A DNA stretch of 63,828 nt, counting the filler, from Rhabdomonas costata (taxonomy: Eukaryota): the NCBI GenBank assembly GCA_019059605.1. It is 52 parts of 52 records of this genome, joined end to end, with 100 filler letters (N's around TTAATTAATTAA, not from the genome) between each part and the next. Parts side by side here need not be neighbours in the genome. Positions count along the whole stretch, not along the records: positions 3,690 to 4,819 come from JAHMHO010027125.1; positions 4,920 to 6,048 come from JAHMHO010027126.1; positions 6,149 to 7,278 come from JAHMHO010027127.1; positions 7,379 to 8,507 come from JAHMHO010027128.1; positions 8,608 to 9,737 come from JAHMHO010027129.1; positions 9,838 to 10,967 come from JAHMHO010027130.1; positions 11,068 to 12,197 come from JAHMHO010027131.1; positions 12,298 to 13,426 come from JAHMHO010027132.1; 44 more parts are not named here. The stretch is one strand, 5' to 3'. Made by a program: the position numbers and the translations under genes. The notes beneath the pieces were generated by a model. It ran no database searches, was not told where the DNA came from, and saw only the letters and a list, made by a program, of their open reading frames with translations. Shown here piece by piece: positions 3,997-54,733 of the stretch (the first letter of the stretch is position 1; the number at the start of each line of letters is the position of its first letter).

Positions 3997-4485
3997 TCAT
4001 CCGGGGGCCATCGGAGGCCGTTTGTATCGCGGCGAAGCAGCGGATAGACATCATCGTGGCGAAGGTCTGCTGCGCACCTTTGGTGTTTGACTCGTTGGAC
4101 TGCTTAAGGTCGTTAGATCCCCACCCTGTTTTTGCGCGGCCTTTCTGCGGCACAACCCTTTGTCCCTTCGCATTTATGTCCGCATGTACTTTGTGGGCAT
4201 TGCCTGTCTTGGCTGTGTTTATCGCTTTTTTAATGCACACGTTGATTTGAGCAGGTACCCTCCTCCGTTTTTGGTTTGCTTGTCTGAGGAAAGCAGCGTG
4301 GACGACGACACATGGATGGGCGGTTTGGAGAAGGGCGGATGCGAGCAGAAAGCATGGATCTAAATGAATGGAATCTATGGGCGAAATGAGGATTTTTTCT
4401 CTGCAGTCTGCGAAGATGGTGGACTACACTCACTTTATCAGCATACCGCTGACCTCTGCTCAGGCGACTGTGGCGAAGCTTTTGG
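3997..4485 (+). CDS. ASCC1: ASCC1-like (KH + 2H-phosphoesterase), two exons 3997-4064 and 4407-~4485
   Basis: Spliced peptide IRGPSEAVCIAAKQRIDIIVAK|SAKMVDYTHFISIPL matches the ASCC1 KH end and THF motif. GT-AG intron 4065-4406 is in frame. Confidence 0.75.
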
Positions 4486-4678
4486 GTTCCTGTGCACTCC
4501 CATCAGCCCCCCCCTCGCAGGCACACCCTTCCTTTGTGATTGAACTTCCTTGTTCAGTAAAAAGGAGGATGGACATTCATGTTTTTGTCTCGCGCTTTGG
4601 CTTCTTTTCTTTTTATCCCTCGAAACGTGTCCTTGCTTGTTGGTGCATCGTTGTATGCGCCGCAGATAGCATTGACAC

Positions 4679-4771
4679 TCGTTTCAGCGGGAGGTCGAAG
4701 GGCGTCGACCCCACCATCTCCAGGTTCACCGTGAGGAACTCCTCGATTTTCGCCACGTGGGCCTGGGCAGA
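4679..4771 (-). CDS. isolated exon, unknown protein
   Basis: CGCAG| ... |GTGTC boundaries, 93 nt, GC3-rich SAQAHVAKIEEFLTVNLEMVGSTPFDLPLKR. Confidence 0.45.
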
Positions 4772-7700
4772 CTGCGAGAAACCGCCGAAAACCAACACAC
4801 ACCACCCACACCCAACACANNNNNNNNNNNNNNNNNNNNNNNNNNNNNNNNNNNNNNNNNNNNTTAATTAATTAANNNNNNNNNNNNNNNNNNNNNNNNN
4901 NNNNNNNNNNNNNNNNNNNTGTGGGTGGGAAAAGGGTGGACAATAGTGTCCAGGTCGCACGAAAGGTCAAAACATACCCTTCCAGAAAACAATACACATA
5001 GTTCAGGAGTACCACGATCCCACCAAGTGCGGGCCCCTGGCGGAGGGCACGACCAATTACCCCGAAATGGGAGGGCAGGGGGAGTTTACCAAGAGAACAG
5101 GTTGAATTCTTGATACGTTGGAGCCCTCAACTTTACCTCGGTTGACCCCGGACGGCTTGTGCAGGGCGGGAGCATGAACTCCAATTTTTAAAGCAAGTTC
5201 TCCCGGCGCCCTGCGTTGGTGAGGGATCCTAGTACCAGCGACTCCCTTGTGCGGTTGCCGCAGGTATAAATACAGAATGCGTCATTCGGACGGAATCCCA
5301 TCCACCCCTCACATAGGACACTCCAACGAACAATAAGGCCCTTCGAGGGAACTCTTGAGAAAGGTCGGCGATAGCGGCAGACCTTTTCGCAATGGGTTCA
5401 GTAACTTTTGGCACCAGCTTTGAGCACACCAACCACGGAAGCTGTTTCGGCTTCTTTCCTCTTGCACGATACCATCGCCTCTGACGATTTCGCAGAAGGC
5501 AACCACACGCACGCACACGCACGCTTGCACTTGGGGCACCTACGGACGCTCGCGGAAGCACGGCAGAGGGGTCAAACGGTCGCAAAGGCTCTTTTCAGTT
5601 TACACACTTCTCTTCACTGTTCGCGTTTATCCCGCGTTCAGGCTGCGGTGGCAGTGGCCGTGGCCTGCGGATGGGCCACTCGGATCTTGGGGGCCTTGGC
5701 GTGCAGCTCCATCAAGTGGTACGCAAAGGCGTCCTCAATGACCTTAGAACCCATGTCACACCACAACGAGAGTGAGAAAGCATGAGTTACGGGAGTTCAG
5801 TCCCAGCCCACATCACAAACCAAACTACACCACTTCGAGGGGTGTCACGGGCGAAAGGACAGAATGACACCTTCCACCTCAGCTGGGCCCTGCTAAAAGC
5901 TTTGCAGGGGGGGGGGCGGTTCAGAAGCCGCGACATTGTCGAGCAGCACATCAGCTTACAAACACAAAGGGACAAAGCAATGCAAGCAAGCTGATACTGC
6001 GACGACTTTCAGTCAACCAACCGACAGTCCAACGATGGAAAAACCACCNNNNNNNNNNNNNNNNNNNNNNNNNNNNNNNNNNNNNNNNNNNNTTAATTAA
6101 TTAANNNNNNNNNNNNNNNNNNNNNNNNNNNNNNNNNNNNNNNNNNNNGGGGTGGTGTGTTCCGTTGGCAGGCAGAATCTATGAGCGGCAGAAGATGCGC
6201 CGCACCTCAATAAACATCAGACAAAATAAAAAGCAGAATGAAGAACAGAGTTCTCACTGGTGAGCACAGCTCGAAGTATAACTTACAGTTGGGTGAGCAC
6301 GATCGAACAATAAGGTTACTGCGCAGCTGAAGTCGAATCAGTCTCGTTTCGCCAAAGCAGCCAAAGCTCCAGTGCCGTGGATTAGCAGTGCACGTTTGCA
6401 GAATCGCAAGATGTTACCATTTGCAACCTCGAACCCCCTCCCCTCCCCACAAAGGCACGAGCACATCGCAAAGCACAAAAAGTGCTGAGAATGTGGATTG
6501 ACACCGCCAAACTCAAGCAGGAAAAGAAAGGAGAGAAGGAACTGCACGGGGCGCTGCCAACGGAATGAAGTGGGGATGGGATGGGAGAGGGAATGTGCCC
6601 AAGCAGTAAACGAACGCGCAATGAATGACGAGCGTAGGAGTTCGCCACAGGTATATACAATTCCAAAGGGACCAGCAGAGGAGAGAGAGAAGCATGGGGG
6701 CAGGGGCAGGTGCTAACTCTCTCGAGGGAAGGGGGACTTCCAAATGAGAAACTGAAGCATGTGGTGAGCGCGAGAAAAAGGAGGGTGTCCAGTCCAGTCA
6801 TAGAAAGGCCCCAAGAAGGGGATGAGTGGTGGAACCGATGCGCGGGAAGTAGCAGCGCTGAAATCACGAAACGCGGAGGGTGGAGGTCTGAAGGGCTTAC
6901 CCGACGACTCCATGAGAGTGACACCTTCCCTTACAACTTCCACCAACCTGCAGACCAGAAAATACTGACACACGGCGATTTGTATGCAATCCGGGATCCA
7001 GGCTAAACCATCCCCTAAACCCATCTAAGAACACATGAACCCCAAAACGAGGAAGACAGACCAGAAATACCGAACCACCATCACAGCTCGCAAACAAAAC
7101 GCACAGACTCAAACAAAGAAAACAGCGGGACGAGGGCGCAGTGCAAGCCCTGCAAATTACGCTTTTTGCAATGGCAAACCCGTCCGCGCGGAAAAAGCAG
7201 CACCATGCCAATCACGCCAAGCAAAGGCGTTCCAAGAGAACAGGATCTCCCACTCTGTGGACCCCCTGTTGCTTACAANNNNNNNNNNNNNNNNNNNNNN
7301 NNNNNNNNNNNNNNNNNNNNNNTTAATTAATTAANNNNNNNNNNNNNNNNNNNNNNNNNNNNNNNNNNNNNNNNNNNNTGTGTGGGTGGGGTGAAACCAC
7401 CGTCCTGGAGAACGGCGATGATGGTTGGTGCTAAGCAGATCACTAGAGGAGAAACTTCCCAGCGGGTGCGGAAACGTCCGATGTGGTGCAAGTACCTTGC
7501 GACTTTTCGACTGTCTTTCGCGCTGTCGTCATGAAGAGATTATCCAGTCTTTTGCATGCTTCAGTTTTCACTCGAGAGTTGTGATGGTTCTGCGTGGTGG
7601 TGCAATTAGATGGGCTCCTTCCCTCTTGTCTTCCTGCGTCGCACACGTGTATCAGCACAATTCCGAACATTTAAGTCCGTCAAAGATTGCAGAAAAATAT

Positions 7701-8648: not shown

Positions 8649-9661
8649 GTGAAAATCATGGATCGCGCCCTGCTCGAGCAGCAGCATTACATGCAGCAGG
8701 TGTTTGCAATTCTTTGATTTGCCCTTTCCGGGACCCTTGACTTGTTTACTTGTGCATATCCACTCACTTGCCCCACACAGCATTTTCTTTCAGAATCTTT
8801 CAGAATTTCCGTTCAGAATTGGAGTCTTGTTAAGGAGGAGTCTTGTTCAGGTTGTTCAGGGAGGATAAGAAACTCAGACTTAAGTCTGACGGGTTGTGTC
8901 AGGCCATCGCAGAGCCTTGTTTTGCAAACCATGTACCGCAGGTGGAGCAGGAGGTGGCCGTGCTGCGGGCGCTGGACCACCCCGGCGTGTCTGAATTGTA
9001 CGCCTTCTTCCAAGACCAGCAGAGGGTGTACCTCGTGCTGGAGTACTGCCCGCAAGGAACGCCCCTTTGCCTATGAGTCAGCGGAGCAGATAGAGAGCCA
9101 TGTTTTTGTGCTGGGTGGTGGCTCGTCTCATGTATATTTTTTGCGGTGCAAATAGTAGTAAGTTATATCCCGAAACTCAGAATTCAGTATGTTTCCAATT
9201 GAAAACTTGGCAACGCTATAAAATGTCGCCTGGTATGTATGCATACGATAACGTTTTTAACGTTTTCACATGCTACTGAGGCTGAAAGGTCGTATTCTGA
9301 GTTTACGGTGTAGTGTGCAATACTTAGTAAACGTTAGCATTTCGTTAAGGAAGTTGGGTTCCGGTTTCGAAGCCGTGGTCCTCTGTTATATTCGTCCCCT
9401 CGCGTCTCAGGTTTTATGAGCGCCGATTGTGGATGATGCGTTTACAGGTGACTTGTTCTCGGCGGTCCTGGAGTCGGGAAGCACTGTCAGTGTGGAATGG
9501 CTGCGGTTCTGCCTGAGTGAGCTGGTGTGTTATAACTCTTTGATCCCCAGAGTGCATCTGAATTACGCTGTTCTCTCATGCCCTTCTGGTTTTGCTGCAC
9601 GTTTCAGACGGTTGTGCTGCAGCACATTCACAACGCTGGCTACTACTACGGCGACCTCAAG
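8649..9661 (+). CDS. Ser/Thr protein kinase (AGC/PDK1-like), exons 8649-8699, 8942-9056, 9448-9524, 9608-9661
   Basis: Spliced VKIMDRALLEQQHYMQQ|VEQEVAVLRALDHPGVSELYAFFQDQQRVYLVLEYCPQ|GDLFSAV...LSEL|TVVLQHIHNAGYYYGDLK covers kinase subdomains II-VIb. Confidence 0.92.
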
Positions 9662-10136: not shown

Positions 10137-11071
10137 GTGCGCGCTGTGCACATGCCTCTGCGCTCTTCTTCGTGGCTGTGTGTAGGATGGGCCGTGTTGC
10201 GGTGTGCTGTGTTCTTTTGGTGGTGTCGATGACTGATGGCAGTGGTGGTGGTGGTAGTGGTTTTACCTGTGCTGGGAGGCATTGTGGTGCTTATCAAGCA
10301 CTGCAACCCAAGAGAGGCATGAGGCTTGAAACCGTGATCGGTTTAGAGGACCGCGGGGCATTTACTGTGGAGGCGGCAGTCATTCGAAATCACGTGAGGC
10401 GTACTTTGTGCTATATGCGGACGGTTCCTTATTATAACATTCCTTCATTCCCTTAACCAATACACGACGAAGAACACCAAAGTCACTGGAAGCAACCATA
10501 TCATCCCCCCCCCCGAATTTACAGCACTATCTCGGGCAAGTAATGCACCGTGGCATGCGACTTTCAATTTAACAGTTCAACAGGAATTTAACAGCCGTCT
10601 TCGGACATTAAAACGACCTTATGCATGTCATTAAGTTTCGCATTTGAGGTTCCATGGTCAGTTTTAAAAGAAGTGTCGTTTCAGCTCTGCCGTTCACTTT
10701 TAAGATGACCCACGCCATAGTATTCCACAGATTGTATCTTTTTTGGCCTTCTGCCGCTGTTTTTCTTGCCGGAACGCTGCTCTCTTCAAACTGTGCTATA
10801 AAGAAACCGTGGTAGAATGGGAGAATAGTTTTCACAGAAAGGAGGCAGGTCCATTTTTGCGGCTTCCTATCTGCCGCATGGGGTTGTGGCACGTTCACAT
10901 TCTTGGATACGTAGATACGTTTATGAGCATATGCATCCTTCGCGGCAGATGCCATCACCCGACCCCCNNNNNNNNNNNNNNNNNNNNNNNNNNNNNNNNN
11001 NNNNNNNNNNNTTAATTAATTAANNNNNNNNNNNNNNNNNNNNNNNNNNNNNNNNNNNNNNNNNNNNGTTG

Positions 11072-11168
11072 TGGGGGCTTCAGGGGGTACTCGTGGGGAA
11101 ACCTCAGGCGGATCTGGTATGAACCCCCCGAGTAGGGCGTGCCCGTGGGGCCTGTCAGCTCGGCGTAC
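11072..11168 (-). CDS. ubiquitin-conjugating enzyme E2 exon (truncated by contig end)
   Basis: YAELTGPTGTPYSGGSYQIRLRFPHEYPLKPP matches the UBC GPxxTPYxGG...FPxxYPxxPP motif. CACAG| acceptor. Confidence 0.92.
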
Positions 11169-12297
11169 CTGTGCACACCCCGCCCGGTGTCCCCCATTAT
11201 TAATATAAAAATCTCCAAGAAACCCTCGGAAACCAGTGCAGTCTGCTTTTGCTTGGGGGTTTGAGGGCAGCGCAGGATTTTCGGTCTTTTCTGAAGGTGT
11301 TCAGCGGCCAGCATAGAATTGACAAAACCACACATGGCAACCAAGCAAAGGCGAAGACCTCAGGCCTGCTTGGGCTTTGCCCTCATGCTTTGTAATAAAA
11401 GCAACCGTGAAAGCAGAAAACTTTCTCCCGGCTGTAGCAGACGAAAACGGAATTTCCCATAAACATGAAAATAGGAGCCAAATCCAGTGGAAGAAATTAA
11501 AAGCAGCGAAGCTGGGTGACGGCCAGGACTATAGAAATCAATGAACTCGGGATGCGGTGTGCTCCAAGAAGAAATATGCCTAAAAAAGTCCAATTGCAGT
11601 GGACTCGTGGTGCGGACACCAGTCAAACTCTGAGTCCGGTGCCAGGAGTATCTCTTCGATTGGACTCCGGTACAGGTCGAGTGCGTCGTGCTCTAGGGCA
11701 ACCTGCCCTGCGCAGGCAACAGGACAACAAACATCGTGTCATATCCTTCAAAGGGGAAAAAACTTTCAAACAAGCAAAACGGTCACATTCGCAGCAGCAA
11801 ACCATAGAACAATTGGACAGGGACTACCGCGGCGCAGAAGTAACCCGACGCACAAAAGCGACTCGGAAAGATGGAGGACCGTTTGTTTACGCGGGTGATG
11901 ACCTGGTTATGAACCTGGAGCATCCAATGAACGCTTTTCTTGACTGAAGCGAATCTCCCATCATGGACGGGCATTGATGTCAGGGGCGGCGGCGAGTTAA
12001 GCAGGGTGTGGTGCACCCCTTGAACAGGTAACTCTTTGTTCCTTCCGACACCGGCCTCTTCTGAGTTGACAAACGGAACAGATCCCAAACAAAACCAAAG
12101 CAATCGTCAGCAAGTGTACCAGGCGGGGCGACTGTGGGTAGCCCAGACGCAGCGTCGGTAAGTTTTCTCCGATGACCGCTATCGGGAACACACACAANNN
12201 NNNNNNNNNNNNNNNNNNNNNNNNNNNNNNNNNNNNNNNNNTTAATTAATTAANNNNNNNNNNNNNNNNNNNNNNNNNNNNNNNNNNNNNNNNNNNN

Positions 12298-12545: not shown

Positions 12546-15500
12546 TTACAATTGTCACATATTTCTTCAATATTTCTGGAGTAAATCCTTCCCCAAGCGC
12601 CTCAGCTACTTCACCGAATTTTTGTTGCATGTTGCACGTGGCTTGGTCCGAGCAAGCCCTGCCTAATGAAGGCCACAGTTCACAGAAACTAGCCACAAAA
12701 AACAACACATCAAAATCAGCTGTTTGTTGTTCAGCCATGATATTACTGAACTTCTCGCGATGGTTCCCCACGTTGTTGTTTGTGGTGCATTTCTCACTGG
12801 GCCTGCCGGTAGCGGAGTGGTCAAACTCGACGGCTTTGACGAAACGGAACGTTCCGGTGTTCCCTCTGTGTTTTGCACACGTGTTTGCGGGATGCCAGAT
12901 TTTCTTATTCATCACCTCGAACGGAACGTTGTTGAACAATTGAAAAATGTTCTCACGAGTCTTTCCTTTGACTGTGAACGCGGCCGTGGTATGCGACATG
13001 TATCAGTTTACTGGCATACCAAGATTCGCACAAAATTCGCATCCAGTAAAGACAGATGTACTGGATGATACTAACACCGTCTGATGATCGCGGTGAGTGC
13101 ATTGGATCCGTCCACACACCATCCACTTACTTTGGTTTGATGGAACCGGAACCTTCAAGAGATACCGGGAACTTGGGGAATGGTTGCGGTACCGCTGGAG
13201 TCGCAACAGCTGTTGCAGTCATTGTAATTGGTATTTGCTTTGGCTGTTGCTTTGGCGTCTCTGTTTGCTGTGAGCTCTCTTCGGCTGGTTCTGCGTTGCA
13301 CTGTGAAGTCGTGTTTAACACAACGTCCACACAAGGCCGTCGTACGTGACATTCATGGGAGGGCGTTCGCATTCGAAAACAAGGAAATTATAAATTCCCC
13401 GACGTACATGTGAAAGCCACCAAACCNNNNNNNNNNNNNNNNNNNNNNNNNNNNNNNNNNNNNNNNNNNNTTAATTAATTAANNNNNNNNNNNNNNNNNN
13501 NNNNNNNNNNNNNNNNNNNNNNNNNNTTTTGTTGGTCACACACATACAAACTCTCCCAGCTCGTTAACAGTCACTACCCATTTATGGAATCTCATGCAGC
13601 ACGGCAGCTGGCTCAAGCATACCAAGACCAGAACAACTTTCGAGGAGTTCGCCTGCTCCTTGAGAGAGTTGTGCTCAATTCACCCAAATGATGCTAAATC
13701 ACGCCCAATCACCGAAATCACCGCAACCCATCATGCACAACCCTATAAGGAAACGGGTTTGTCAGAAGCTATTGGACGTTTCCGATGGAATTGAGGACTG
13801 GTTTTTTCTTGAAAAAAGCGATTTGAAGCAAAAAAAAATCGCCCTTATTTGATGGAATTGGGCGTTTTAGGGCAAGCCCAATCCAATCAAATGGCAAGGC
13901 AACCACGGGACAAAGACCAACGATCAGCGCAGTCATGTGAACTGGGACAGAAAGTTAGACAAGGATAAAACAATAATAAACGCGCAAATGAAAATATGGA
14001 AATAGAAAAGCCGTCGCTCACATACCACGCTGCTTCCCTTCCCCTAGAAAGAACAATGCGTATATTATCCATTGATGCAAGACCGCGCTGAAGTGCACAA
14101 TCGTTGTTCGGCTTATCATAGGCTTTCGTGCCAACATGGGACCACCTTTTTTTGCGCACCCGGGGTGGGTGTTTTTGGTGGAAGTGGAAAGGTCCACTCA
14201 ATTTGAAACTGAATGAGCCACTCTATTCTTGACAGGCGCTCGCCCTACGGTGTTCACGCTGGTTCACATTCACTCCAAACACGCCAAAAAAGTCAAACCA
14301 ACAGCCAGGACAGACCTTCAGAGACCTAATTGAGTGCGGATAAATCTCCCGCGAATACCTGGGGCACTATCACCGCGATCGTTTCCGTGGAGTTGAGGTT
14401 TGGATTGAGGCTCCTCAAAGCTGGGTCTGACCAGTGGGTCACATTTCCTGTTATTGGAAAAAAAAAACAAAAAATCGAGACCTTGCCGCATCCCAAAGTG
14501 CGCACAACAACAAGATTTGGGAATAGCAAATTAGACGGTCCCCCACCCCGTGACGCAGACCCGAGCGTAGCGATCGCTACCGAGTATACTCATTCCAGAA
14601 GTGTGTTGGTGCCTAGAATTTTAGGTGTTAAGTGTGTCAGAACCTAGAATCGCCCANNNNNNNNNNNNNNNNNNNNNNNNNNNNNNNNNNNNNNNNNNNN
14701 TTAATTAATTAANNNNNNNNNNNNNNNNNNNNNNNNNNNNNNNNNNNNNNNNNNNNGTTTTGTGGTTCTTCACTCAGGATGGCCCCCTCGCACGGTGCAG
14801 CCTCAGCTTCCAGTGAGGAGGCACCGTGCGAGGGGGCCATCCTGAGTGAAGAATCACGAAAGAGAAAAATTATACATACCTATAAGCCTCTGCGGTTGAA
14901 GCGCAGATTCTCCAGGTTTTCGGCTCCTTATTTCACGTGGAACACGTCAAACCTACAAGGTGAGAACAGAAGAAGCATTCCAACTGATTCATTCTTCCAA
15001 CTGCCCCATTCTGCTAATTGCCCCATTCTTCCAACTGGCTCATTCTTACTCATGAAAGGAGCCCTGATGAGGAAGAATGAACAGTCAATCGCAAGCACGG
15101 CGCGGAGCAGACCCGCAGCATCCCAGTGGACCGACCATGGCCACACCGTTGGCCCGCCTTTCTGCAGGCTTCTGTTGTCCTCCCAACGCCCGAGGCTGCG
15201 AAAGAAAAAGCACCAAAAATTTTCCACCGCACAGTGCATATGAACCGGAACTGTGGCGAGGAACTGGCATCTTCACAGTTTAGCTGGATCGTGTTGCTCG
15301 TTCGGGTTCTGAGTATCACACACGCTAGAAACGGAGATTGCTTTAAAAAAACATTCCCATTATTATATATCCAACTAACATTATTTTCTGCGCCTTTGGG
15401 TCTTTTAGTTGAGAGCAGCTGATTCTGAACTTCGTACTCTCTGCGTGAGAATCGGTCTCTTCAAAGACAAAAACGACAAAAACCGTTTGTGTCATTCAGA

Positions 15501-20000: not shown

Positions 20001-20196
20001 CTGTGATTCTCAGTCTGCCCACTGCGATGTGCCCAATGGAAAGGCCCTACAATGCGTGCATCCCCCTGAAAGGTAGTGCTTACCTCCAAAAACCCCTCCA
20101 AGCACAGCAGTTCAGGTCAAACGGCCGACTTTTGAGAATGTGACTGCCCCCTCAACCGTCCGTCTCTCCCAGCGCCCCACCCCCTTCCTTCCGTAC

Positions 20197-20519: not shown

Positions 20520-20683
20520 CTGTGCCAAGGGAATCCGGGAACCAGAGAGCCCGGAACAGAATACTACGGCAGCACAGGTTTGCAAAACGGCAGCGAACAC
20601 TGGCGCCAAGGCACAAGGTACACGACAGATCGGAAAAAGGAAAGAAGGAAGGTTGAAGGGGGAGAGAAAGGGTTTGAGAGAGG

Positions 20684-21040: not shown

Positions 21041-22042
<1,002 letters not shown>

Positions 22043-22145
22043 ACNNNNNNNNNNNNNNNNNNNNNNNNNNNNNNNNNNNNNNNNNNNNTTAATTAATTAA
22101 NNNNNNNNNNNNNNNNNNNNNNNNNNNNNNNNNNNNNNNNNNNNG

Positions 22146-23144
22146 GTTGTGGTGAACTCCAAAGCAGAGGTTCTGGTGGTGCAGGAGAAGCAGTACGGGA
22201 AGCACTGGAAACTTCCCGGGGGGCTGGTGGAACCCGGGGAGGACCTGGCTAGGGCCGCGGTGCGGGAGGTCTTCGAGGAGACAGGGGTGAGGTGCCGGTT
22301 CCTCGGCCTCCTGGCAGTGCGGGAGAAGCATTTGGAGTGCATGTTTGGAAATCGCATCGGAGCTTCGCACATCGCCATATAAGTATTCCTATGGCTGAAA
22401 CCATTTTGAGGACTTTCGTTTTGGGGGTACCCCTTGTTTTCTTCATGCGACATTTCCAAGGTAGCTGGTAACGTAAAGGACGAGGGATTAATTTTTTGGA
22501 AGTGGTTTTGCACTTCCTGCTTCCCATCCTGTTCGTGGCATATTTATTGTGCAAAAGAAAGCTTGGACACAGCTTCACGCTCCTCTGCTCGACTGTTGTA
22601 TTCGTAAAAATTTCACCGCGTTGATAACTGCACATAAATGCACCCAAAAATGGATGTGCTACCGTCACCGTTTCGAATAGTAGGTGGCCTCCCGTTCGTC
22701 CTCGGGCTGCCTTCCACTGATATTCAATACGTCGCTGGTGTGCGCACTCCCGCTGCGTTTCCCGTGCCCGAGCAGCACGGCTACCTGTGGGGGCGCGATG
22801 ACCTCTACTTTGTCGCCCACCTGGAGCCCACCTCGGACGCAGAGCAAATCACGATGTGCGAGACTGAGCTCGCTGCTTGCCAATGGATGCCCCTTGAGGC
22901 CTACCTCAGCAGTGACAAGATCAACCCCATCTCCAGGCACATCGCGGCATGTGCCAAGGCTGCCGTGGCCGGAGCCTCGGCCTCTGTGGAGGTGTGCGGG
23001 GTGCAGATTCAGTACGCCCCCGCCACGGACAAGTACCACACCTTCTTCAGCCACTTGAATGGTCCCGCTCAAACGGTGCTCTCGGGGCTGTCGCTGGATT
23101 CGGCACAAAAGCCAGTCTACAAGCCCTACGAGGCTACTCTGTGA
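22146..23144 (+). CDS. Nudix hydrolase, NUDT6-like; last two exons separated by a ~447-nt non-canonical intron
   Basis: VLVVQEK...[28 protein letters not shown] (Nudix box), resuming at [13 protein letters not shown]...[13 protein letters not shown]. Stop TGA at 23142-23144. Confidence 0.93.
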
Positions 23145-30941: not shown

Positions 30942-31606
30942 CGGGGTTGCTGCCATGCAGATCGACGAGAAACTCCGTGGCCAAGAGCACAATGTCGTCC
31001 TCCGTGGTCACCGTGAGTACCACCAACAAGTGGGACAGGAAGGTGTGGCCTGTTGGGCCCCCGCCACGACCCCGGAATGACGACCCCTACACGACCCACT
31101 CATCCACCCCGTCCCCTCCCAGTCCCCTTCCATGGGTTTCTATCATATGGTTCATCACGCGAGAAACATCTCTATTTAAATATCTTCATTCACGCGTCAA
31201 TCAATGTTTCATCCTTTCTCTGTCCCAAGCCACAGACAAGTGCAGATAGGGATCTGAGCGGCGACCCAGCACTTCAAGGAGGTAAAAGCACAGCTATCCA
31301 ACCGGTAGACCAAAAGTCGATCCACATTCGCGTGTTGCACGTCACTGCAGTCTGACCATTCACTGCCCCAAATCTGTCAGACAGGCGGATGGGGTTTGGG
31401 CCCGTGGGGAAGAGGTCACCCTTGCGTGACATCAAGATCTCAACGATTCGCGCCTTCGCGGCAGGACTGGGCAGCATTCCGACCAGCAGCTCTAGGATGG
31501 GCTTCCACACGCACAGGTCGTCCAGTACAGCAATTCCCGCGTCCAGCACGATGTTGAGGAGCGGCAGCTGGAGCTCTGGAGGGGCCTCCCGGTGCAGAAG
31601 CTCAAG
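30942..31606 (-). CDS. alpha-helical protein, exons 31606-31357 and 31049-30942
   Basis: GT-AG intron 31356-31050 joins ...DRFGAVN|GHTFLSHLLVVLTVTTEDDIVLLATEFLVDLH in matching phase. Confidence 0.7.
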
Positions 31607-37639: not shown

Positions 37640-38591
37640 GTGCCGTGTGTGTGTTTATGTGTGCCGGAGAAAGGAGAAGAAGAAGGAGAAGAATGCCCCA
37701 TTTGGTAACCTTTCTGTGTCGTCATCTCAAGATTCGCCACTGAGCGAGACTCTGTTCAACCGTCCCGCACCGAGGCGATGTATGTCCCCACACAGGCACG
37801 TGCTGGGCCACGAGTTTGCGGAGCTTACTTCACCAGCACACCTGAGCGACAGCAGTGTGGCCGACCGTGAATATGGATAGGATTGGGTTTCGGTGCCTGA
37901 TAGTAATCATTCTGGTGTTTACCCTTTACAGCCAACCATTGTGTATGTGCATCCCGGTCGGCGAATAAATAGGGTGTTTGGGGTCTTATGGAGATGTTGG
38001 GAGGGTAGAGGGTGTCACTGGTTNNNNNNNNNNNNNNNNNNNNNNNNNNNNNNNNNNNNNNNNNNNNTTAATTAATTAANNNNNNNNNNNNNNNNNNNNN
38101 NNNNNNNNNNNNNNNNNNNNNNNGTGGTTGGGTCTATTCGATGGCCACAGTGCATTTTCGTTGTGCCTGTTTTCGTGGCAGTTTTGCTGCAGTTGTGGTT
38201 TTCCGTTGCGCAACGCCCCTTGCAAAACCTCCAGAGGGATGGAAAAGCATACCCGCCGGTAAACCCGTGTTCAGATCGGCGATGAGGTTTAGGATGGCGC
38301 TTTTCATGCGCGTTCATCAGCTTTCTTTGTTGGGTGGGGCCCCGCTGATGTGGAGAGGGGGGCATTATGTTTAAATGTTCAGTTTACCAAAACTGTATGC
38401 CAGCTGTGCTGCGGGCACTGGATATGATCTGCCGTTATTCATCAGCTCGTTGCAACTGATGTACCTCAAGCTACATCTTTTCTCCTGGCTCTTTATCGCA
38501 GCGCTTCCCCTGCTTCTTCTTTGTTTCCTCAGTTTTCTCGCGAGCCAGGCTTTTCTCTCTCCACACCACAGGGTACGCACTTCCCTGAAAA

Positions 38592-44586: not shown

Positions 44587-45138
44587 GGTCGCGTTTTCTT
44601 CTGGCGGAATGCACCGCCCATGGCTGCGGACGCCAGCGTGACGGCCTCCTCCCACAAATTGCTGTCGTTGGCCCTGCCCAGCGTTGACACAGATGGGGAT
44701 ATCTTATACTGTGTGATAACCAAACTCCCAACACAGGGTATGCTTTGTGCTGACACCCCTTATTCTTGTTGTCGTCTATTTTCGGGCTTCAGTGCATCCT
44801 TGCACTTCCTCTGCCCCGTGGCCTCAGGTTCCCTGTACCAGTCCACTGACGGCTCGCCCATTCTTAGCCCTGGGACGGTGGTCGCCAGCCCGGGCTGCGA
44901 GATAATGTTCCAGAGCTCCGGGTATGGGTGGGGCCTGGGATACACCACCTTCCAGTACGGGGTGCTGGAGCAGGCCATCCACCCTACGAACCTGAGCTTC
45001 GCTGCAGCGGTGGCCACGATCACGGTCGACGTGACGTACACCAGCAGCCTGCCCGAGCTTGGGGCTCCGGCCCGTGCCACGATGCTTGAGGACTCCTCTG
45101 GGGCTGTGCTGCAGATCACCGCGAGCGACCCGAATGGG
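44587..45138 (+). CDS. surface protein with cadherin-like/bacterial Ig-like repeats, exons 44587-44737 and 44828-45138
   Basis: NAPPMAADASVT...DTDGDILYCVITKLPTQ|GSLYQ...TTFQY...ITVDV...MLEDS...ITASDPNG. GT-AG intron 44738-44827. Confidence 0.8.
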
Positions 45139-45922: not shown

Positions 45923-46621
45923 TTCTGCGCATCAAAGTACTTCCGAGTGGACACGCTCTTCACCAGCTTTACCGTACGCTTCATCTTCTTCTCAGGGTCT
46001 TGAGTGCTCAGCTTCAGAACCGCCATTTTGCCCCGAAGAGAGCCACCGCTCAGACCCGCCGGCGAGGACATCGTCGTCAGTGACAGCACACGCTCCGGAA
46101 AGCTCACCGCCATCTGCTGCACGATCAGCCCTCCCATGCTGAACCCGCACAGATGGGCCTGCGGCAGGTCCAGGTGGTCCAGAAGCGCCGCCGCGTCCAG
46201 CGCCATGTCATACACCGTGTACGGCGAGTCTTGTGTTCCGAAAACCGACCCCAGGAACACCGAGACCACGTCGGTGCTTCCCAGGTGATCCAAGTGGGTG
46301 CTCAGGCTGCAGCACAGGTAACGTTGCAGTTAGATGGCAGAGCAAGTCAGTGTCTCCGAACCGCAGGAAAAGGGGGTGAACACACACTACACTAACAGGC
46401 AGCAGGACCAACCAGGGAAGAAAGGAGAGAACAAAAGGGAAAGCGAGGGAAAAGATAATGACCATCCCGATGATGGGGCAGCAGAAAACCCGTTTTATCA
46501 CAGAGGGGTAATGAAGCGCACACACATACCCCACGTCTCGGTTGTCAAACCGGATCACAAAGAAGCCCTCCTCCACCAACCTCTCGCAGAACTCCGTCCG
46601 CCAAAGGATCATCTGTCCCAA
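45923..46621 (-). CDS. alpha/beta hydrolase (bacterial RdmC/MhpC-like), exons 46621-46530 and 46306-45923
   Basis: QMILW..EFCERL..GFFVIRFDNRDVG|LSTH...PYTVYDMALDAAALLDHL...HLCGFSMGG (GxSxG nucleophile). Confidence 0.95.
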
Positions 46622-47106
46622 AACCCNNNNNNNNNNNNNNNNNNNNNNNNNNNNNNNNNNNNNNNNNNNNTTAATTAATTAANNNNNNNNNNNNNNNNNN
46701 NNNNNNNNNNNNNNNNNNNNNNNNNNTTGTTGGACCTCAGTTCCCCCTGTCTGAGCAAGCTGAGTTAGCACTTGCTCAGACAGGGGGAACTGAGGTCCAA
46801 CTAAACCAAGCATTGCATGGAGCAGAATACAGATGAAACAAACACCCCAAATCGCCATGCCATTGGAACCTGGGGCTGCATCTCGATTGCTTGGGTATGA
46901 GAAGGGGGTGCATATGTCCGTCAGGAGCAGCGAATATTTTGAACTGAGTGTTAACCTGAACTGCATTGAGATCTTTGTTAAAAAGAAACCTGGATTACCT
47001 AGTGAACGAGGATAGAGCCCCAAGAGCAACGAACGCAAACTGCGACACAAGAGCTGATGACAGAGGTACATTTAAAATGGTTGAAACGTGGGATAGAAAA
47101 GTCGGT

Positions 47107-47238: not shown

Positions 47239-47835
47239 CATTCATGATCAGGAGGTCCACTAAGGAGGAAGTGTCCTCAATGAGCTTCAGGGGCGCCTTG
47301 TAGGCTTTCGAGAACGCGTACACGTCCAGCACCAGGTGAGATACCCCCGCGTTGACCAGTGCATCTTGGTCTTCCTTCCGGACATCTGTCGCGCCACAAA
47401 AAAGTCCACGCTTTCACCCGCAACGTAAACTGACGGGGATGTCAATCCTACCCCTTCCCACTCAACAATAACAACGAAGATCAGCGGTCTCAGGAGGAGA
47501 CACGCAGCAAAGAAAACGGCGCTTATTTTACCATGATTTCACCATTCGTTTCATTAAAGGCCAACCAGAACAATGAACAGAAACAAACAGCAGCACAGCA
47601 TGAACGGACAGTCCGGTTTCGATTGATTCGATTGATATGCCTTAGCTGAAAAAGCGCTATACTGGAGGGACAATGTGGGAATGTGAAGAGAAGTGGGGGG
47701 CACACCCTCGCCGGTCACCATTTTCAGGGTTAATGCCACCACAACCGACTTCATAGAGACGGCGTAGGTTGCCATCGCTGCACGGAAGATTTGCTCAAAG
47801 ACGTTCACGGTGGCATGCTTGTCCCGGAAGGCAAC
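47239..47835 (-). CDS. helical (ARM-like) protein, exons 47835-47706 and 47385-47239
   Basis: A GT-AG intron joins ...LTLKMVTGE|DVRKEDQDALVNAGVSHLVLDVY in phase. Confidence 0.65.
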
Positions 47836-50634
47836 CTGCACCCCCCCCCACAACNNNNNNNNNNNNNNNNNNNNNNNNNNNNNNNNNNNNNNNNNNNNTT
47901 AATTAATTAANNNNNNNNNNNNNNNNNNNNNNNNNNNNNNNNNNNNNNNNNNNNTTGTTGGTGTGTGTGTGTGTGTGTGTGTGTGTCTGCACTCTCGATC
48001 CTCGCACCACTCGGGTACCTCCGAGTCTACTGGCTGGCTTGGCGGCGAAGCTACGCCATTGTCGAGCGCCGGGCACAGGCGGGTTCACTGCGTCGATTCG
48101 CCGGGCGGTGCAATTCATCAAAGCGAAACAGCATCCCCACAAGTGGTGGGTTAGACGCTTTGCCCTCTCCCTACTTCGGCAGGGAGTTCCGGTGGGGTAC
48201 TTTCCTCCCCTCTTGCGTTCATCGGTCTCCTTCCAAAAATGTGGGATGTCTGCGTAAGGTACCCGAGTTTCGCAAACTGTTCTTCTGCGGACATGGGTCG
48301 GTTTCCCTCACCTCGACTCTATGGGAGCGCCGTGTGTGTGTGTGTGTGTGTGCGCGCGCGCGTGCGTGCGTGCGTGCATGGTTGCTTCCTCGAGCCATGT
48401 TCAGCGTTCTCGAGAAATTGGCCAGTCTTGAACCTCTGATCGCAGCCTGCATCTTTCCCCAGCCTTGGGCGTTTCTGTGGCTCGGTGCTGTTGTGGGTCG
48501 GTCGACAGGGTTGGGTGCGGGTGTTGGAACGGGGTGTAAGGGGTTTATCCACCTGACAGTGTGTCCAAAGATTTGCTTACTCCTCGATGTTTGCCTGGCT
48601 GATTCCCGTGGCTCTCATGCTCTCTCACTCTGTCACTTATATACGTTCTAGTCAGGACGGACAGAAACCGCGCCTGCGTTCGTTGCAGGTTGTGCACCAG
48701 AAGACGTTTGTAAGACGCTTTTTGTTGTGATTTTTTTCCGTGGTCTTTTCCCCGCGGAAAGGACTAGAACAAAGTGTGTGCACTCTCCACAAGAGACATG
48801 CAAATGGCACGAGTGCCGGCCCTTAACAAGGTCCCACCCCACTCCCCGTAACATTACCGTGAGATAAAATGAAACGAGAGAAGCAGAGCAACGAATCCCA
48901 AAACAAATCGTCGTCCCACACATCCAGGGTCCAGCAAACATTTTCACTGCGAGACTGCAAGGAGGAATGCTAATCCATTTCAGCTCATCAAAAAAATCGC
49001 TCCCATGCATCTGCGAACGTACGGAACCCATGATCCATAAAAAGGCGAGGATCCTGGGGAAGATCGTTCGCGTAACAACCCCACCNNNNNNNNNNNNNNN
49101 NNNNNNNNNNNNNNNNNNNNNNNNNNNNNTTAATTAATTAANNNNNNNNNNNNNNNNNNNNNNNNNNNNNNNNNNNNNNNNNNNNAACGCGTTAGGACGC
49201 AGAAGCTGCGGATCCAATTCTGCTGGCAGGGTGGGATATGCAGCCGACCGACCGAAAAAAATCCCAAATTGTCAGCTAAACAAACCTCTGGACATTGTTG
49301 TAGTTCTGTGATCCTGAGCGTGTTTGCTTATGCACTTCACGAGGGGTGAAGTGTTTGCACGTTGAGTTCGCAGGTGAGTTTGCTGTGGTGGGTGAGTCGT
49401 GAGTCGTACACTTTGAATACTTTCTGCTGGGCTGAGGCTGAGAGGCCAGGGTCGGGTGGGCGACAATCACTGAGACTGGTGAACTGCCCCAGTGGCATGA
49501 GACATGTGTGGCCCGCCCATTCACGCTTTTGTTCTCCCAACCGTCTTCACTCTCTACTTCAACACCTGTTTTCCCAAACCTCACCCCAGCCGTTGCAAAA
49601 CTCTTGTGCCTGTGCCGCAGTGCCGAACTTCTATCAAGTACTACCATGCTGAGCAAACAAAAAACCGTCCCCATACCCTTGCGGACCCCCACGTCTCTTC
49701 AAGGTGACTTGGCTGCTGTGCATACAACTTGGGGGACAATAGCAGCCTAACAACTTGCGAACCTCCAAAATTCGAGCTGTTTTGGAAATGTCACGTTGGA
49801 GGTCAGTTTCATCCTTTACAGTGTGGGGCTCCTGTAGGTTACTTGTACTTTTTTGGAAGCGTGTTGGCTCTTCCATATTGGAAGCCGTCTATTAGCTCAT
49901 GCTGATTGCTTGAGTTCCGTTGTGTTCAAGGTGCCGGTGCTCAGTCATACAATTGCATACACTTAGACAAGAGACTTGCTTAAAATAGCCCCGTAAAATC
50001 TAGTCACAGGGAATATCCGGACAAACGGGGCTCCAGAGTCCATTGAGGAGCAAACAAACACAACCGACTACACTCTACAGTGCATTGAATAATTGAACAG
50101 CAGTTTTAAATCTCAATTTTGCACTTTGTGCCCCTTTGGACCAAACAATGTCCTCTTTCTGTATCTTCCCCGGGGGATTCTGTATTTTTTTTTACAATTT
50201 TCAAAATTTGATTGAACACGTAGATGTTCCAAGTTCGAAGTGATTATGTACACTTTCAAAATAATAATACAGGAATATCTTATATACCAATTTTATAACA
50301 GTGACAACAACACCNNNNNNNNNNNNNNNNNNNNNNNNNNNNNNNNNNNNNNNNNNNNTTAATTAATTAANNNNNNNNNNNNNNNNNNNNNNNNNNNNNN
50401 NNNNNNNNNNNNNNGATGGGCAGCTTGACGCTGTCCCCGGAGCGACTTAGCTCCACAGAGAGCTCCCCCAGTGGTGCGGAGTGCTCACCCCCCCCCCCGC
50501 TTGTTCGCTTTTTTGTTGATGAAGGAAGATTGATGACGCAATAGCATCGCTGTGGTGCACTGGGTTCGAGCCCCGGATGGGTTGTTTCACGAGTGACGGC
50601 CGTACAAAGAGGGGACTAAGCCGAAGTTGGCCAG

Positions 50635-53009: not shown

Positions 53010-53330
53010 GGCCAATGACTGACCTTTTCAACATGATGGTCGAGAATTCCCATCATGGAGAGCAGAGAATTTTCCGTGCTGGGTGGTCTCGCTCCTTCCG
53101 TATGGAATCAGGACCTATTTGGCGCGCCCTGTTACGGTGGTGGTCACGGTTAGAGTGTGCCTGTGTGGCTCCGTGAATCCATCGTTTTGATCGGTTTCCC
53201 TTCTTCAGAGGGCTGCACGCGTTTGCGAAGTATGTCCCCCGGGATGTGGTGAAGATGATGCTCAGCGGAGGGATGAGCTCGAACGCGATGACGCGGCGGA
53301 ATGTGACGATCATGTTCGCGGACATTGTTG
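53010..53330 (+). CDS. HAMP + class III adenylate/guanylate cyclase, exons 53010-53043 and 53209-53330
   Basis: PMTDLFNMMVE|GLHAFAKYVPRDVVKMML...RRNVTIMFADIVG: HAMP end, FxKYVP linker and first catalytic Asp. Confidence 0.92.
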
Positions 53331-54135
53331 GTTTGCTTTTTGCCTCCTTTTTCTTATCAGCACCACTACGTTGTTTGCTTTGATCGGAGCAGGATTGTCT
53401 CTCGATCATGCAGGTTGGTTGTATTCGTATCGTGTGATGCTCATGCTTTTGGTTTCCCTCTACTTATTGCTGTTGTCCTTGTATGCTTGAAGGGGAGCAC
53501 AACGCCAACACTCTGCGGCTGAGTGAAGTTTGGTGCTTCCAACCAATTAAATTTAGGCTGAGAATTATATGTCTGGTACGTTTTGTCTCATCCTTCCCAA
53601 AACGGAGAACGCCCTATTTTCGAGAATACATAGCGGATTGCAGATGATTCAGCTGCTATGATGTGCCTGGGAAGACCTGGGATTGATGTACTGCACCGTG
53701 GATCTGATGAAGTATAAGCCAAAGCGTTCTTTCGGGTGGAATGGACAGTGATTGATACGATGATAACCGACCAAACAAGTTTGCTCCGGTGCCGAGAGCA
53801 CGACACGACGCCAGCTCACAGCAGCTCACAGGGTTTGTGCTGGTGCATCAGCGGTGCCTTGTACCAACAGGTTTTTGAATTGCTTCTTTTGTTGGAGCCG
53901 TTGTGACCAACTGGCTGGACATATCGGGCCAATTCGACCCTGGGGTCCTTCCTGGGCTGTTGATCTTTCCAGCCAGTTGGTCACAACGGCTCCCCCCAAA
54001 ANNNNNNNNNNNNNNNNNNNNNNNNNNNNNNNNNNNNNNNNNNNNTTAATTAATTAANNNNNNNNNNNNNNNNNNNNNNNNNNNNNNNNNNNNNNNNNNN
54101 NTTTTTGTGGTGGGAATGTGAAAGGGAGCTGACGC

Positions 54136-54733
54136 CTGGAGCAGCTTCCGATCAATCCGGTCGATGTCCAGCAGGACGTGGTCGTACATCTGCTCGGCCT
54201 TGCCCAGGGCCTTGCTGTCCAGCACGTCCGCCTCGGGGTGAGCGTGTAACTGTCGTGCATTGAGCACGATCTGCTCGATGTCACTGACAAACTTCTGTGT
54301 GCAGATTTTGCAGCGAGTGGTGATACTGGTTCTTCGAAATACAGCTTCAGTTTCTTTCCACTACAAGGTAAAAAAGATAACTAGTGGCCATATGCCTTAG
54401 AAACCCTAAATTGAATGAGCAAATGCAACGCACTAGAATGAAGTTCGTTTCAGAAAAAGAAGGCTTATTTCAAACAGCAGCCATAGTCAAAATGCATCAG
54501 ACGCAAATAAAGATAACATAAGGGAACTGGAAACCAATCCAAGGAACGTGATATTTGTGTGTGAGTCTTCCACCTGAATGCTGGTGTATTCTCCGTCATT
54601 GCACCTCCGCATGCAGTCGGTCAGCCACAGCGGCTTCTTCACGGTGGCGTAGAAGCCCGGGCACTCGCTGGGATCCACGGGCTTGTGGAAGGGCGCGAAC
54701 TTCCTGTCATTCTGCAACCTCAGGATGATGTCC
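54136..54733 (-). CDS. ATAD2/Yta7-like bromodomain, exons ~54733-54574 and 54294-54136
   Basis: RDIILRLQNDRKFAPFHKPVDPSECPGFYATVKKPL...EYTSIQ|KFVSDIEQIVLNA...KAEQMYD. GT-AG intron 54573-54295. Confidence 0.85.

What the first reader, a model, noticed from the sequence alone, without database searches (positions are those of the whole stretch)
4065..54573. Unusually heterogeneous splice-site repertoire overall
Seen: among complete introns anchored on both sides, 10 are GT-AG (4065, 8700, 9525, 21116, 21438, 31356, 44738, 46529, 47705, 54573) and 3 are not (9057, 22320/22329, 53044). There are also likely GC donors after DDX41 (CAAG|GCACGG, 21993) and the bromodomain exon (CAG|GCGTCA, 54135), plus one non-AG acceptor. 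CAAG|GCACG and CAAG|GAACG differ only at +2. Inference: a spliceosome tolerant of G[T/C/A] donors may coexist with a structure-guided intron class. This is the best candidate for an undescribed system here. The sample is small and hand-picked.
Basis: partly seen in the sequence, partly recalled or inferred. Interest (0 to 1): 0.75.

Follow-up and report, generated by a model that had tools for sequence, protein, structure and literature searches.

The report
Euglenid mix of ordinary and odd introns
The mixed splice sites are real, but they are the already described two-class intron system of euglenid protists (here Rhabdomonas costata or a very close relative), not an undescribed one.

Summary
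The window is not one locus. It is 52 separate contigs of about 1.13 kb, joined by identical N44-TTAATTAATTAA-N44 linkers. One gene matches a transcriptome-derived protein of the euglenid Rhabdomonas costata (eukprot:RCo007841) at 100% over exon 1 and with one mismatch over exon 2.

That protein fixes one truly non-canonical intron in a Nudix gene (about 22328-22774). None of its six possible boundary placements is GT-AG, GC-AG or AT-AC. A 4-nt repeat flanks it and its ends pair. These are the hallmarks of euglenid nonconventional introns.

Two further introns (9057, 53044) read best as GA-AG by homology. They have no transcript support and no terminal pairing. The DDX41 donor at 21993 is GC (or GG), anchored on its exon side only. 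The bromodomain "GC donor" at 54135 is not anchored at all.

Of the ten GT-AG calls, five are supported by family motifs or Pfam order, four by open frames only, and one (8700) has no fixed acceptor.

Conventional and nonconventional introns together are well described in euglenids, including this species (PMC8219788). GA-AG rows also appear in that paper's tables. Verdict: real observation, already known biology, low interest.

The parts
22328..22774 (+). Nonconventional intron in a Nudix hydrolase gene (447 nt). The boundary can slide: start 22327-22332, end 22773-22778. Drawn here as GC..CA; the slide 22330-22776 gives C|A at both junctions.
   Evidence: The junction ...REKH|GYLWG... in transcriptome-derived P0001 is identical to both flanks. 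AGCA is repeated at both junctions and no canonical placement exists. Ends pair: 27 pairs between the first and last 40 nt in the MFE, against a maximum of 24 in 299 random 447-nt windows. A 7-bp perfect helix is present, reached by 3.4% of shuffles.
22146..22327 (+). Nudix exon upstream of the nonconventional intron (the contig starts at 22145)
   Evidence: 100% identical to P0001 residues 114-174. Pfam NUDIX profile 9-68, E 2e-17.
22775..23144 (+). Nudix last exon, with stop codon
   Evidence: Matches P0001 from GYLWG to the C-terminus with one mismatch (A/T). The junction fits 7 of 8 aligned homologues without an indel.
9057..9447 (+). Putative GA-AG intron (391 nt) in a kinase-like gene. 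An AGG repeat also allows AG..AC, GG..CA and AA..GG.
   Evidence: The exon ends at Pkinase profile position 83 and the next exon begins DLF. No same-species protein was found. The gene lacks the catalytic lysine. Only 6 terminal pairs in the MFE.
53044..53208 (+). Putative GA-AG intron (165 nt) in an adenylate/guanylate-cyclase-like gene
   Evidence: Paralogue P0023 reads ...FDAMERGLEAFAKYVP against window ...FNMMVE|GLHAFAKYVP, the same length. The pyrimidine-rich 3' end is ...CCCTTCTTCAG. No terminal pairs in the MFE. The family name rests on my reading of the FADIVG motif; Pfam gave no hit on these short exons.
21993..22044 (+). 5' part of an intron after DDX41 exon 3, beginning GCACGG (GC donor, or GG by a 1-nt slide). 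It is cut by the contig end.
   Evidence: Orthologues continue ...EYVKQEAK..., whereas the window reads through as GTESATPPP. The type (GC-AG or nonconventional) cannot be told.
54102..54135 (-). Claimed GC donor after the bromodomain exon: not anchored
   Evidence: The frame stays open to the contig end and no homology marks an exon end.
21116..21354 (+). GT-AG intron, DDX41
   Evidence: The join ...[21 protein letters not shown] fits the DEAD profile order 94-109 then 115-137.
21438..21816 (+). GT-AG intron, DDX41 (starts with a GT/GC-rich microsatellite)
   Evidence: The join ...EDEVR|KVFDFF fits DEAD profile 115-137 then 148-167.
9525..9607 (+). GT-AG intron (83 nt), kinase-like gene
   Evidence: The join ...CLSEL|TVVLQHIH...YGDLK keeps the frame. 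The fit to the kinase motif is my reading.
46307..46529 (-). GT-AG intron, alpha/beta-hydrolase gene
   Evidence: The join ...FDNRDVG|LSTHLD keeps the frame. The downstream exon hits Abhydrolase_1, E 3e-12.
54295..54573 (-). GT-AG intron inside the bromodomain
   Evidence: The upstream exon matches Bromodomain profile 1-54 of 84. The join ...EYTSIQ|KFVSDIEQ keeps the frame.
4065..4406 (+). GT-AG intron (open-frame support only)
   Evidence: GTCTGC...TTTTTTCTCTGCAG; the frame continues ...IIVAK|SAKMVDYTHF. No Pfam hit.
31050..31356 (-). GT-AG intron (open-frame support only)
   Evidence: GTCAGA...CCCAACAG; the frame continues ...GAVNG|HTFLSHLL.
44738..44827 (+). GT-AG intron, 90 nt (open-frame support only)
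   Evidence: GTATGC...GGCCTCAG; the frame continues ...KLPTQ|GSLYQ.
47646..47705 (-). Short GT-AG intron (60 nt, or 49 nt ending at 47657)
   Evidence: Both AG acceptors keep an open frame.
8700..8793 (+). GT donor at 8700. The acceptor is not fixed; 8793 is one candidate AG.
   Evidence: Several AG acceptors keep a frame, and the downstream exon has a frame break near 8834-8868.

Best explanation
The window is a string of 52 short contigs from the fragmented nuclear genome of the euglenid Rhabdomonas costata, or a very close relative. Its mixed splice sites reflect the known euglenid intron repertoire.

(1) Conventional spliceosomal introns carry GT-AG (less often GC-AG) ends and a GTGTG-like 5' site that pairs with U1. 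This accounts for the ten GT-AG calls and possibly the GC donor of DDX41.

(2) Nonconventional introns have arbitrary end dinucleotides and a short direct repeat at both junctions. Base pairing between the two intron ends brings the junctions together. In Euglena these introns are removed after the conventional ones by unknown machinery and released as circles. The Nudix intron at about 22328-22774 is one of these.

(3) The two GA-AG introns have AG acceptors, one with a clear pyrimidine tract and one weak, and their ends do not pair. They most likely are conventional-type introns whose +2 base is A, either tolerated by the spliceosome or dead donors in unexpressed gene copies.

Shown: the organism link, the Nudix junction and its features, and the exon ends by homology. 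Inferred: the removal mechanism (taken from Euglena work) and whether the GA donors function.
For: Structure of the window:
- 51 identical linkers separate pieces of 1124-1139 bp.
- DDX41 is followed across a linker by an unrelated Nudix gene.

Organism:
- P0001 (eukprot:RCo007841) is 100% identical over 61 residues and differs at 1 of 122 residues in the second exon.
- RCo identifiers are transcriptome-derived R. costata proteins, and that genome draft has N50 1194 bp.

Nonconventional intron:
- None of six boundary placements is canonical, and AGCA is repeated at both junctions.
- 27 end-to-end pairs in the MFE, against 0 of 299 random windows reaching 27.
- A 7-bp helix, reached by 3.4% of shuffles.
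- In the slide 22330-22776 both junctions are C|A. There +4..+6 UGG pairs with -9..-7 CCG, followed by 6 nt and an A. This is one base away from the CGG-CCG variant of the Euglena code.
- All seven published R. costata candidates start GC, and the following exon starts with G, three times as GCAC. The Nudix intron drawn as GC..CA is likewise followed by GCAC.

Conventional class:
- The E. gracilis 5' consensus is GTGTG. Window donors include GTGTGT (twice), GTGTGC and GTGTTT.

GA class:
- Junctions are fixed by Pkinase and solved-structure alignments and by a paralogue.
- The published tables for this species hold GAAG 90 and CTTC 95 occurrences. Five of the 26 read-supported annotated cases are GA-AG.
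Against: - No RNA data could be laid on the window, so only 1 of the 3 non-canonical introns has transcript-level support.
- The kinase-like gene found no same-species protein. It lacks the catalytic lysine and has a frame break, so its GA may be a decayed donor.
- The cyclase-like gene matched only a paralogue.
- The Nudix intron fails the strict Euglena signature: no C at +4 in any slide.
- Its end-to-end duplex energy is not significantly better than shuffles (z -1.3).
- The organism link rests on one gene plus one paralogue.
- The contigs come from low-coverage, amplified DNA according to the species paper, so single-base errors cannot be excluded.
Confidence: 0.85

Rival explanations
1. 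The GA-AG (and perhaps GC) sites are not working splice sites. They are mutated donors of unexpressed or decaying gene copies, or base errors in low-coverage amplified contigs. Only GT-AG and the nonconventional class are real.
For: The kinase-like gene lacks the catalytic lysine, has a frame break, and gave no same-species protein of 141 aa or more. The cyclase-like gene hit only a 70%-identical paralogue. The species paper describes an amplified sample at 10-20x coverage, and kept only 7 of 26 inspected non-canonical cases as nonconventional, none of them GA-AG.
Against: Five of the 26 read-supported, annotated non-canonical introns in that paper are GA-AG. GA-AG gave the highest count of the four non-GT/GC classes I tallied: 185 occurrences, against CA-AG 122, GG-AG 91 and AT-AG 82. 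Two independent errors at exactly +2 of donors would be unlikely.
Confidence: 0.3
2. An undescribed splicing system: a new kind of spliceosome tolerance together with a new structure-guided intron class.
For: The Nudix intron does not meet the strict Euglena code. R. costata introns begin GC(A) rather than N3-CAG. No paper in the held library pairs the term GA-AG with euglenids in a relevant way (2 hits, both off-topic).
Against: Every feature seen has a published counterpart in euglenids, including this species: non-canonical borders, junction repeats, paired ends, coexistence with GT/GC-AG, and GA-AG rows in the tables. In E. agilis, 38.8% of nonconventional introns also miss the strict code.
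Confidence: 0.03
3. The DNA is from a dinoflagellate, where GT, GC and GA donors with an AG|G acceptor are the norm (recalled, not from a call).
For: There are GA and GC donors after AAG. The kinase-like acceptor is AG|G.
Against: There is an exact match to an R. costata protein. The cyclase-like acceptor is AG|A, and only 2 of 9 fixed GT-AG acceptors are followed by G. The Nudix intron has no G-N donor in most slides.
Confidence: 0.01

Closest known systems
Nonconventional introns of Euglena (E. gracilis, E. agilis). Sources read: PMC3935182 and PMC6221363 abstracts in the search listing; PMC11170887 sections 4 and 10; PMC12501133 abstract and sections 5 and 11; PMC11282704 passages.
   Same: Non-canonical, slidable borders with a short direct repeat. 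Ends brought together by pairing. Coexistence with GT/GC-AG introns in the same genome. In one slide, the Nudix intron shows the N3 / 3-bp core / N6 / purine-exon geometry.
   Different: The core is UGG-CCG (G.U at +4) rather than C-D-G/C-H'-G. The predicted terminal stem is long (27 pairs), not just 3-5 bp. The share of such introns looks low here, whereas they are 57% of introns in E. gracilis and 72% in E. agilis.
The seven putative nonconventional introns reported for Rhabdomonas costata (PMC8219788: section 'Intron characteristics' and Table S6 read)
   Same: Same species by protein identity. The intron can be drawn starting GCA, with the next exon starting GCAC. Inverted repeats lie near the ends.
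   Different: The only Table S2 row whose contig name gives this piece's length (1129 bp) is a GT-AG intron, so this intron looks like a further instance. That rests on contig length alone. The 3' end is ...GAGCA rather than the ...CC seen in five of the seven.
Conventional euglenid GT/GC-AG introns (PMC11170887, section 4 read)
   Same: GTGTG-like 5' sites, AG acceptors, and some very short introns (49-90 nt).
   Different: None for the ten GT-AG calls. The GA-AG pair differs only at +2.
Dinoflagellate GC/GA donor usage (recalled; no paper read for it)
   Same: Works alike on paper: G at +1 with variable +2, and an AG acceptor.
   Different: Different lineage. The G after AG is not consistent here. 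The frequency is about 1% in this species' tables rather than tens of percent.

Membership tests
Euglenid nonconventional intron (Nudix intron) | Borders are not GT-AG, GC-AG or AT-AC | tested here: met
   Six placements are allowed by P0001 and the DNA: AG..GC, GC..CA, CA..AG, AT..GC, TT..CA, TT..AC.
Euglenid nonconventional intron (Nudix intron) | Short direct (TSD-like) repeat at both junctions, making the intron slidable | tested here: met
   AGCA is present at both the 5' and the 3' junction.
Euglenid nonconventional intron (Nudix intron) | Base pairing that brings the two intron ends together | tested here: met
   27 pairs between the first and last 40 nt in the MFE; 0 of 299 random 447-nt windows reached 27 (maximum 24). 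A 7-bp perfect helix, reached by 3.4% of shuffles. Against: duplex energy z is only -1.3.
Euglenid nonconventional intron (Nudix intron) | Euglena code 5'-N3CDG-/-CH'GN5-6|R (PMC12501133) | tested here: not met
   No slide has C at +4. Slide 22330-22776 has UGG at +4..+6 and CCG-N6|A at the 3' end, so the 3' half is met and the 5' half is one base off.
Euglenid nonconventional intron (Nudix intron) | No polypyrimidine tract | tested here: inconclusive
   The pyrimidine share at -20..-3 is 0.61, inside the 0.44-0.78 range of the GT-AG introns.
Euglenid nonconventional intron (Nudix intron) | Removed after conventional introns and released as circular RNA | not testable with these tools
   No RNA data for this window.
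R. costata published nonconventional set (Table S6) | Intron drawn starting GC(A), with the following exon starting G (GCAC in 3 of 7) | tested here: met
   Slide 22328-22774 starts GCATTTGG and is followed by GCACGG.
Euglenid nonconventional intron (GA-AG introns 9057, 53044) | Terminal pairing of the intron ends | tested here: not met
   6 and 0 end-to-end pairs in the MFE. The longest helix is 5 bp, reached by 57% and 67% of shuffles.
Conventional U2-type intron (GA-AG introns 9057, 53044) | GT or GC at +1/+2 with an AG acceptor and a pyrimidine-rich 3' end | tested here: not met
   The AG acceptor is present in both. The pyrimidine share is 0.50 and 0.78. But +2 is A.
Conventional U2-type intron (ten GT-AG calls) | GT...AG with a frame-preserving join | tested here: met
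   Nine of 10 have both ends fixed. For 8700 the acceptor is not fixed.
U12-type AT-AC intron (Nudix intron) | AT-AC ends with a conserved extended 5' site (recalled) | tested here: not met
   No slide gives AT..AC. The AT slide ends in GC and starts ATTTGGAG.
Dinoflagellate-type introns | Dinoflagellate host genome | tested here: not met
   Exact match to an R. costata protein.

The most novel reading that the evidence does not exclude
In this early-branching, non-photosynthetic euglenid two things hold together. First, GA donors with AG acceptors and no end pairing are working spliceosomal introns. The euglenid U2-type spliceosome would then accept G[T/C/A] at the 5' site, much as in dinoflagellates. 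Second, the nonconventional class follows a relaxed relative of the Euglena code: the N3 / 3-bp core / N6 / purine geometry, but a UGG-CCG or GGG-CCC core and GCA(C) junction repeats. That would point to an older, looser form of the code.
Probability: 0.3. Interest if true: 0.4.

Novelty: already known. Interest (0 to 1): 0.2.

Why it matters
The finding matters mainly as a check. A reader working from raw sequence alone rediscovered the dual intron system of euglenids.

Two small points go beyond the literature I read. The Nudix intron looks like a further, well-anchored nonconventional intron in a species where only seven candidates were reported. GA-AG introns recur both in this window and in that species' supplementary tables, yet the sections I read do not discuss them.

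Neither point changes what is known about how these introns are removed, which remains an open question in Euglena.

Tried and rejected
- Whole genome: none is held.
- Rfam at gathering thresholds: 0 hits, so no snRNA to examine.
- Earlier notes of this scan: none.
- Dinoflagellate origin: my first alternative, rejected.
- Kinase-like exon search for a same-species protein: no hit.
- Cyclase-like exon search: only a paralogue.
- DDX41 representative search: 760 proteins at E up to 0.001, but no 100% match. The best was a 90%-identical 85-aa fragment, so the GC donor stays anchored on one side only.
- Cluster look-up for P0024, P0001 and P0023: could not be made because the database was switched off.
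- Introner or repeat-family test: an all-against-all blastn of the 52 pieces found only (TG)n runs and palindromic contig ends, with no shared intron family.
- Motif GCACGG-N8-ACTCC: 2 matches against 0.97 expected, not enriched.
- End-to-end duplex energy and the 10+U7+10 fold used for E. gracilis: neither separated the intron classes in this small set.
- Hairpin across the GA donor at 53044: real, but such hairpins occur at 0.42 per kb, so it is not significant.
- Aldose-epimerase 3' exons, which might hold a GG-AG intron: my by-eye model got no Pfam or solved-structure support and was dropped.
I used coordinates instead.
- Matching window pieces to named contigs of the species paper by length class: no piece could be matched.

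Full report
**What the window is.** The 63,828 bases are not one stretch of genome. They are 52 pieces of 1124-1139 bp (mostly 1129-1130) joined by 51 identical 100-base linkers, N44-TTAATTAATTAA-N44. Genes do not continue across linkers. Three DDX41 exons in piece 20916-22044 are followed, after a linker, by an unrelated Nudix gene. So the pieces are separate short contigs of a very fragmented assembly. Every "complete" intron in the finding lies inside a single 1.13-kb contig.

Rfam finds no RNA gene at gathering thresholds.

**Organism.** The Nudix exon at 22146-22379 was searched against longer proteins. The best of 22 hits was P0001, named eukprot:RCo007841, at 100% identity. tblastn of P0001 on the window gives 61 of 61 identical residues for exon 1. 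The second exon is identical from GYLWG to the C-terminus except for one A/T difference.

The paper on Rhabdomonas costata (PMC8219788; abstract, passages and the section "Intron characteristics" read) uses RCo identifiers for its 39,456 proteins, which were predicted from the transcriptome. It describes a genome draft with N50 1194 bp. The window therefore comes from this osmotrophic euglenid or a very close relative. My earlier alternative, a dinoflagellate with GT/GC/GA donors, is rejected.

**The one transcript-anchored non-canonical intron.** P0001 reads ...[16 protein letters not shown].... The DNA on the 5' side is ...GAGAAGCAT|TTGG and on the 3' side ...GAGCAGCAC|GGC. The shared AGCA, plus the synonymous CAT/CAC codons, allows six boundary placements: AG..GC, GC..CA, CA..AG, AT..GC, TT..CA and TT..AC. 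None is GT-AG, GC-AG or AT-AC. The join fits the family, since 7 of 8 aligned Nudix homologues show no indel at the junction.

The intron (447 nt) folds with its two ends paired:
- The MFE has 27 pairs between the first and last 40 nt. In 299 random 447-nt windows from the same contigs the mean was 4.5, the maximum 24, and 15 reached 20 or more.
- A 7-bp perfect helix (GGAGTGC/GCACTCC) links the ends and is reached by 3.4% of shuffles.
- Against this, the simple duplex energy of the two 40-mers is not significant (z -1.3, 9.7% of shuffles as good).

**Comparison with the Euglena code.** The experimentally defined signature is 5'-N3CDG-/-CH'GN5-6|R, with CGG-CCG as a working variant (PMC12501133, abstract and section 11). 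In the slide 22330-22776 both junctions are C|A. There +4..+6 is UGG and -9..-7 is CCG, followed by six bases and an exon that starts with A. The three pairs +4/-7, +5/-8 and +6/-9 are in the MFE.

So the 3' half of the code is met and the 5' half is one base off. The strict test fails. In E. agilis, 38.8% of nonconventional introns also miss it.

**Comparison with this species' own published set.** In Table S6 of PMC8219788 all seven candidates are drawn starting GC. The next exon starts with G, three times as GCAC. The Nudix intron drawn as 22328-22774 starts GCATTTGG and is followed by GCACGG.

The only row of Table S2 whose contig name gives a length of 1129 is a GT-AG intron. The Nudix intron therefore looks like an additional instance, but that rests on contig length alone.

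**The two GA-AG introns.**

At 9057 the kinase-like exon aligns to Pkinase profile 44-83 and ends exactly at its last residue. It aligns to solved kinases up to ...LVLEYCPQ(G). The next exon begins DLFSAV behind ...TTTACAG. That gives CAAG|GAACG...TTTACAG|GTGAC. A 3-nt repeat also allows AG..AC, GG..CA and AA..GG, but only GA..AG has an AG acceptor.

At 53044 the only protein hit was a paralogue, P0023 (RCo016229), 70% identical over 34 residues. Its ...FDAMERGLEAFAKYVP matches the window's ...FNMMVE|GLHAFAKYVP in length when GTCGA|GAATTC... is joined to ...CCCTTCTTCAG|AGGGC. No in-frame GT-AG pair gives that join (my reading).

Both introns lack end pairing: 6 and 0 end-to-end pairs, and longest helices of 5 bp that 57% and 67% of shuffles reach. 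They look like conventional introns with A at +2.

Caveats are serious:
- Neither has transcript support.
- The kinase-like gene gave no same-species protein of 141 aa or more.
- It has AIA where kinases have the catalytic AIK.
- It shows a frame break near 8834-8868.

It may therefore be a pseudogene.

**GC donors.** Orthologues of DDX41 continue ...EVEYVKQEAK(I/M)VYLLECLQKT (P0028, P0030, P0031, P0035, P0041). The window instead reads through as GTESATPPP. The exon therefore ends at CAA(G), and the intron starts GCACGG (or GG by one slide).

A GT lies 11 nt downstream, but using it would insert residues into a motif conserved in all these orthologues. The 3' end is outside the contig, so GC-AG and nonconventional cannot be told apart. 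By eye, the start GCACGG...AACTCC...C-run resembles the published NODE_718 intron. A pattern test in the window was not enriched.

The bromodomain "GC donor" at 54135 is not anchored, because the frame stays open to the contig end.

**The ten GT-AG calls.** All ten sites have GT at the stated place.
- Five have joins that fit family motifs or the order of Pfam profile positions: 9525, 21116, 21438, 46529 and 54573.
- Four rest on open frames only: 4065, 31356, 44738 and 47705.
- For 8700 I could not fix the acceptor.

Several donors are GTGTG-like, as in E. gracilis conventional introns (PMC11170887, section 4).

**Published tally for the species.** The supplementary workbook holds 11,418 putative introns in Table S2 and 1,164 non-canonical ones in Table S3. 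Whole-file word counts are:

| Boundary word | Count | Reverse-strand word | Count |
|---|---|---|---|
| GTAG | 4549 | CTAC | 4912 |
| GCAG | 308 | CTGC | 326 |
| GAAG | 90 | CTTC | 95 |
| GGAG | 54 | CTCC | 37 |
| CAAG | 70 | CTTG | 52 |
| ATAG | 63 | CTAT | 19 |

They run over all sheets, so classes listed in both S2 and S3 are counted about twice. I could not reconcile the sums exactly.

GT-AG is about 83% of Table S2. However, the authors kept only 105 contigs after read mapping and seven introns after inspection. Five of the 26 inspected annotated cases are GA-AG. The sections I read do not discuss them.

A search for "GA-AG" with "euglenid" gave two papers, both off-topic. The diplonemid paper PMC12621601 does not use the term.

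**Verdict.** What remains open is whether GA donors function in this species.

Noticed in passing
whole window; linkers e.g. 1131-1230, 22045-22144: The window is a concatenation of 52 contigs of about 1.13 kb. They are joined by 51 identical linkers (N44-TTAATTAATTAA-N44) that carry stops in all six frames. ORFs that run through N stretches are artefacts.
   Followed up: yes
43982-44168, 36896-37035, 14766-14853, 28291-28378, 46729-46801, 19515-19569; also 61894-61977 vs 61477-61560 and 25959-26039 vs 25834-25914: Many contigs begin or end with long palindromes or carry inverted duplications. These are most likely chimeras from whole-genome amplification and assembly; the species paper says the reads came from an amplified sample.
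   Followed up: partly
47675-47687 and 54110-54122, minus strand: The 13-mer TTCACATTCCCAC occurs twice (0.08 expected), each time 20-30 nt inside a putative intron just after the donor. Its meaning is unknown.
   Followed up: partly
53032-53039 / 53050-53057: A perfect 8-bp hairpin encloses the GA donor at 53044. Such hairpins occur at 0.42 per kb in the window, so this may be chance.
   Followed up: yes
8794-9661, plus strand: The kinase-like gene has AIA in place of the catalytic AIK motif and a frame break near 8834-8868. It found no same-species protein. It may be a pseudokinase or a pseudogene.
   Followed up: partly
P0024 (85 aa): A protein fragment 90% identical to DDX41 exon 3 diverges right after ...VKQG. 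This suggests a called ORF that reads into an intron at the same position in a related organism. Its source could not be looked up.
   Followed up: partly
19761-20116, minus strand: Downstream of the aldose 1-epimerase ORF (20115-20867) there may be two more small exons, joined by introns whose best by-eye model includes a GG-AG. Pfam and solved-structure searches gave no support.
   Followed up: partly
20683-20745, 21438-21481, 33816-33863, 36316-36354, 47960-47987, 48328-48367: (TG)n/(CA)n microsatellites are the only sequence shared between contigs. One forms the start of the DDX41 intron at 21438.
   Followed up: no
32423-32770 (+), 37259-37705 (+), 11068-11359 (-): Other coding pieces: a disintegrin-like domain (E 2e-14), a weak papain-family hit (E 2e-4) and a ubiquitin-conjugating enzyme exon (E 2e-8). 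Their introns were not examined.
   Followed up: no
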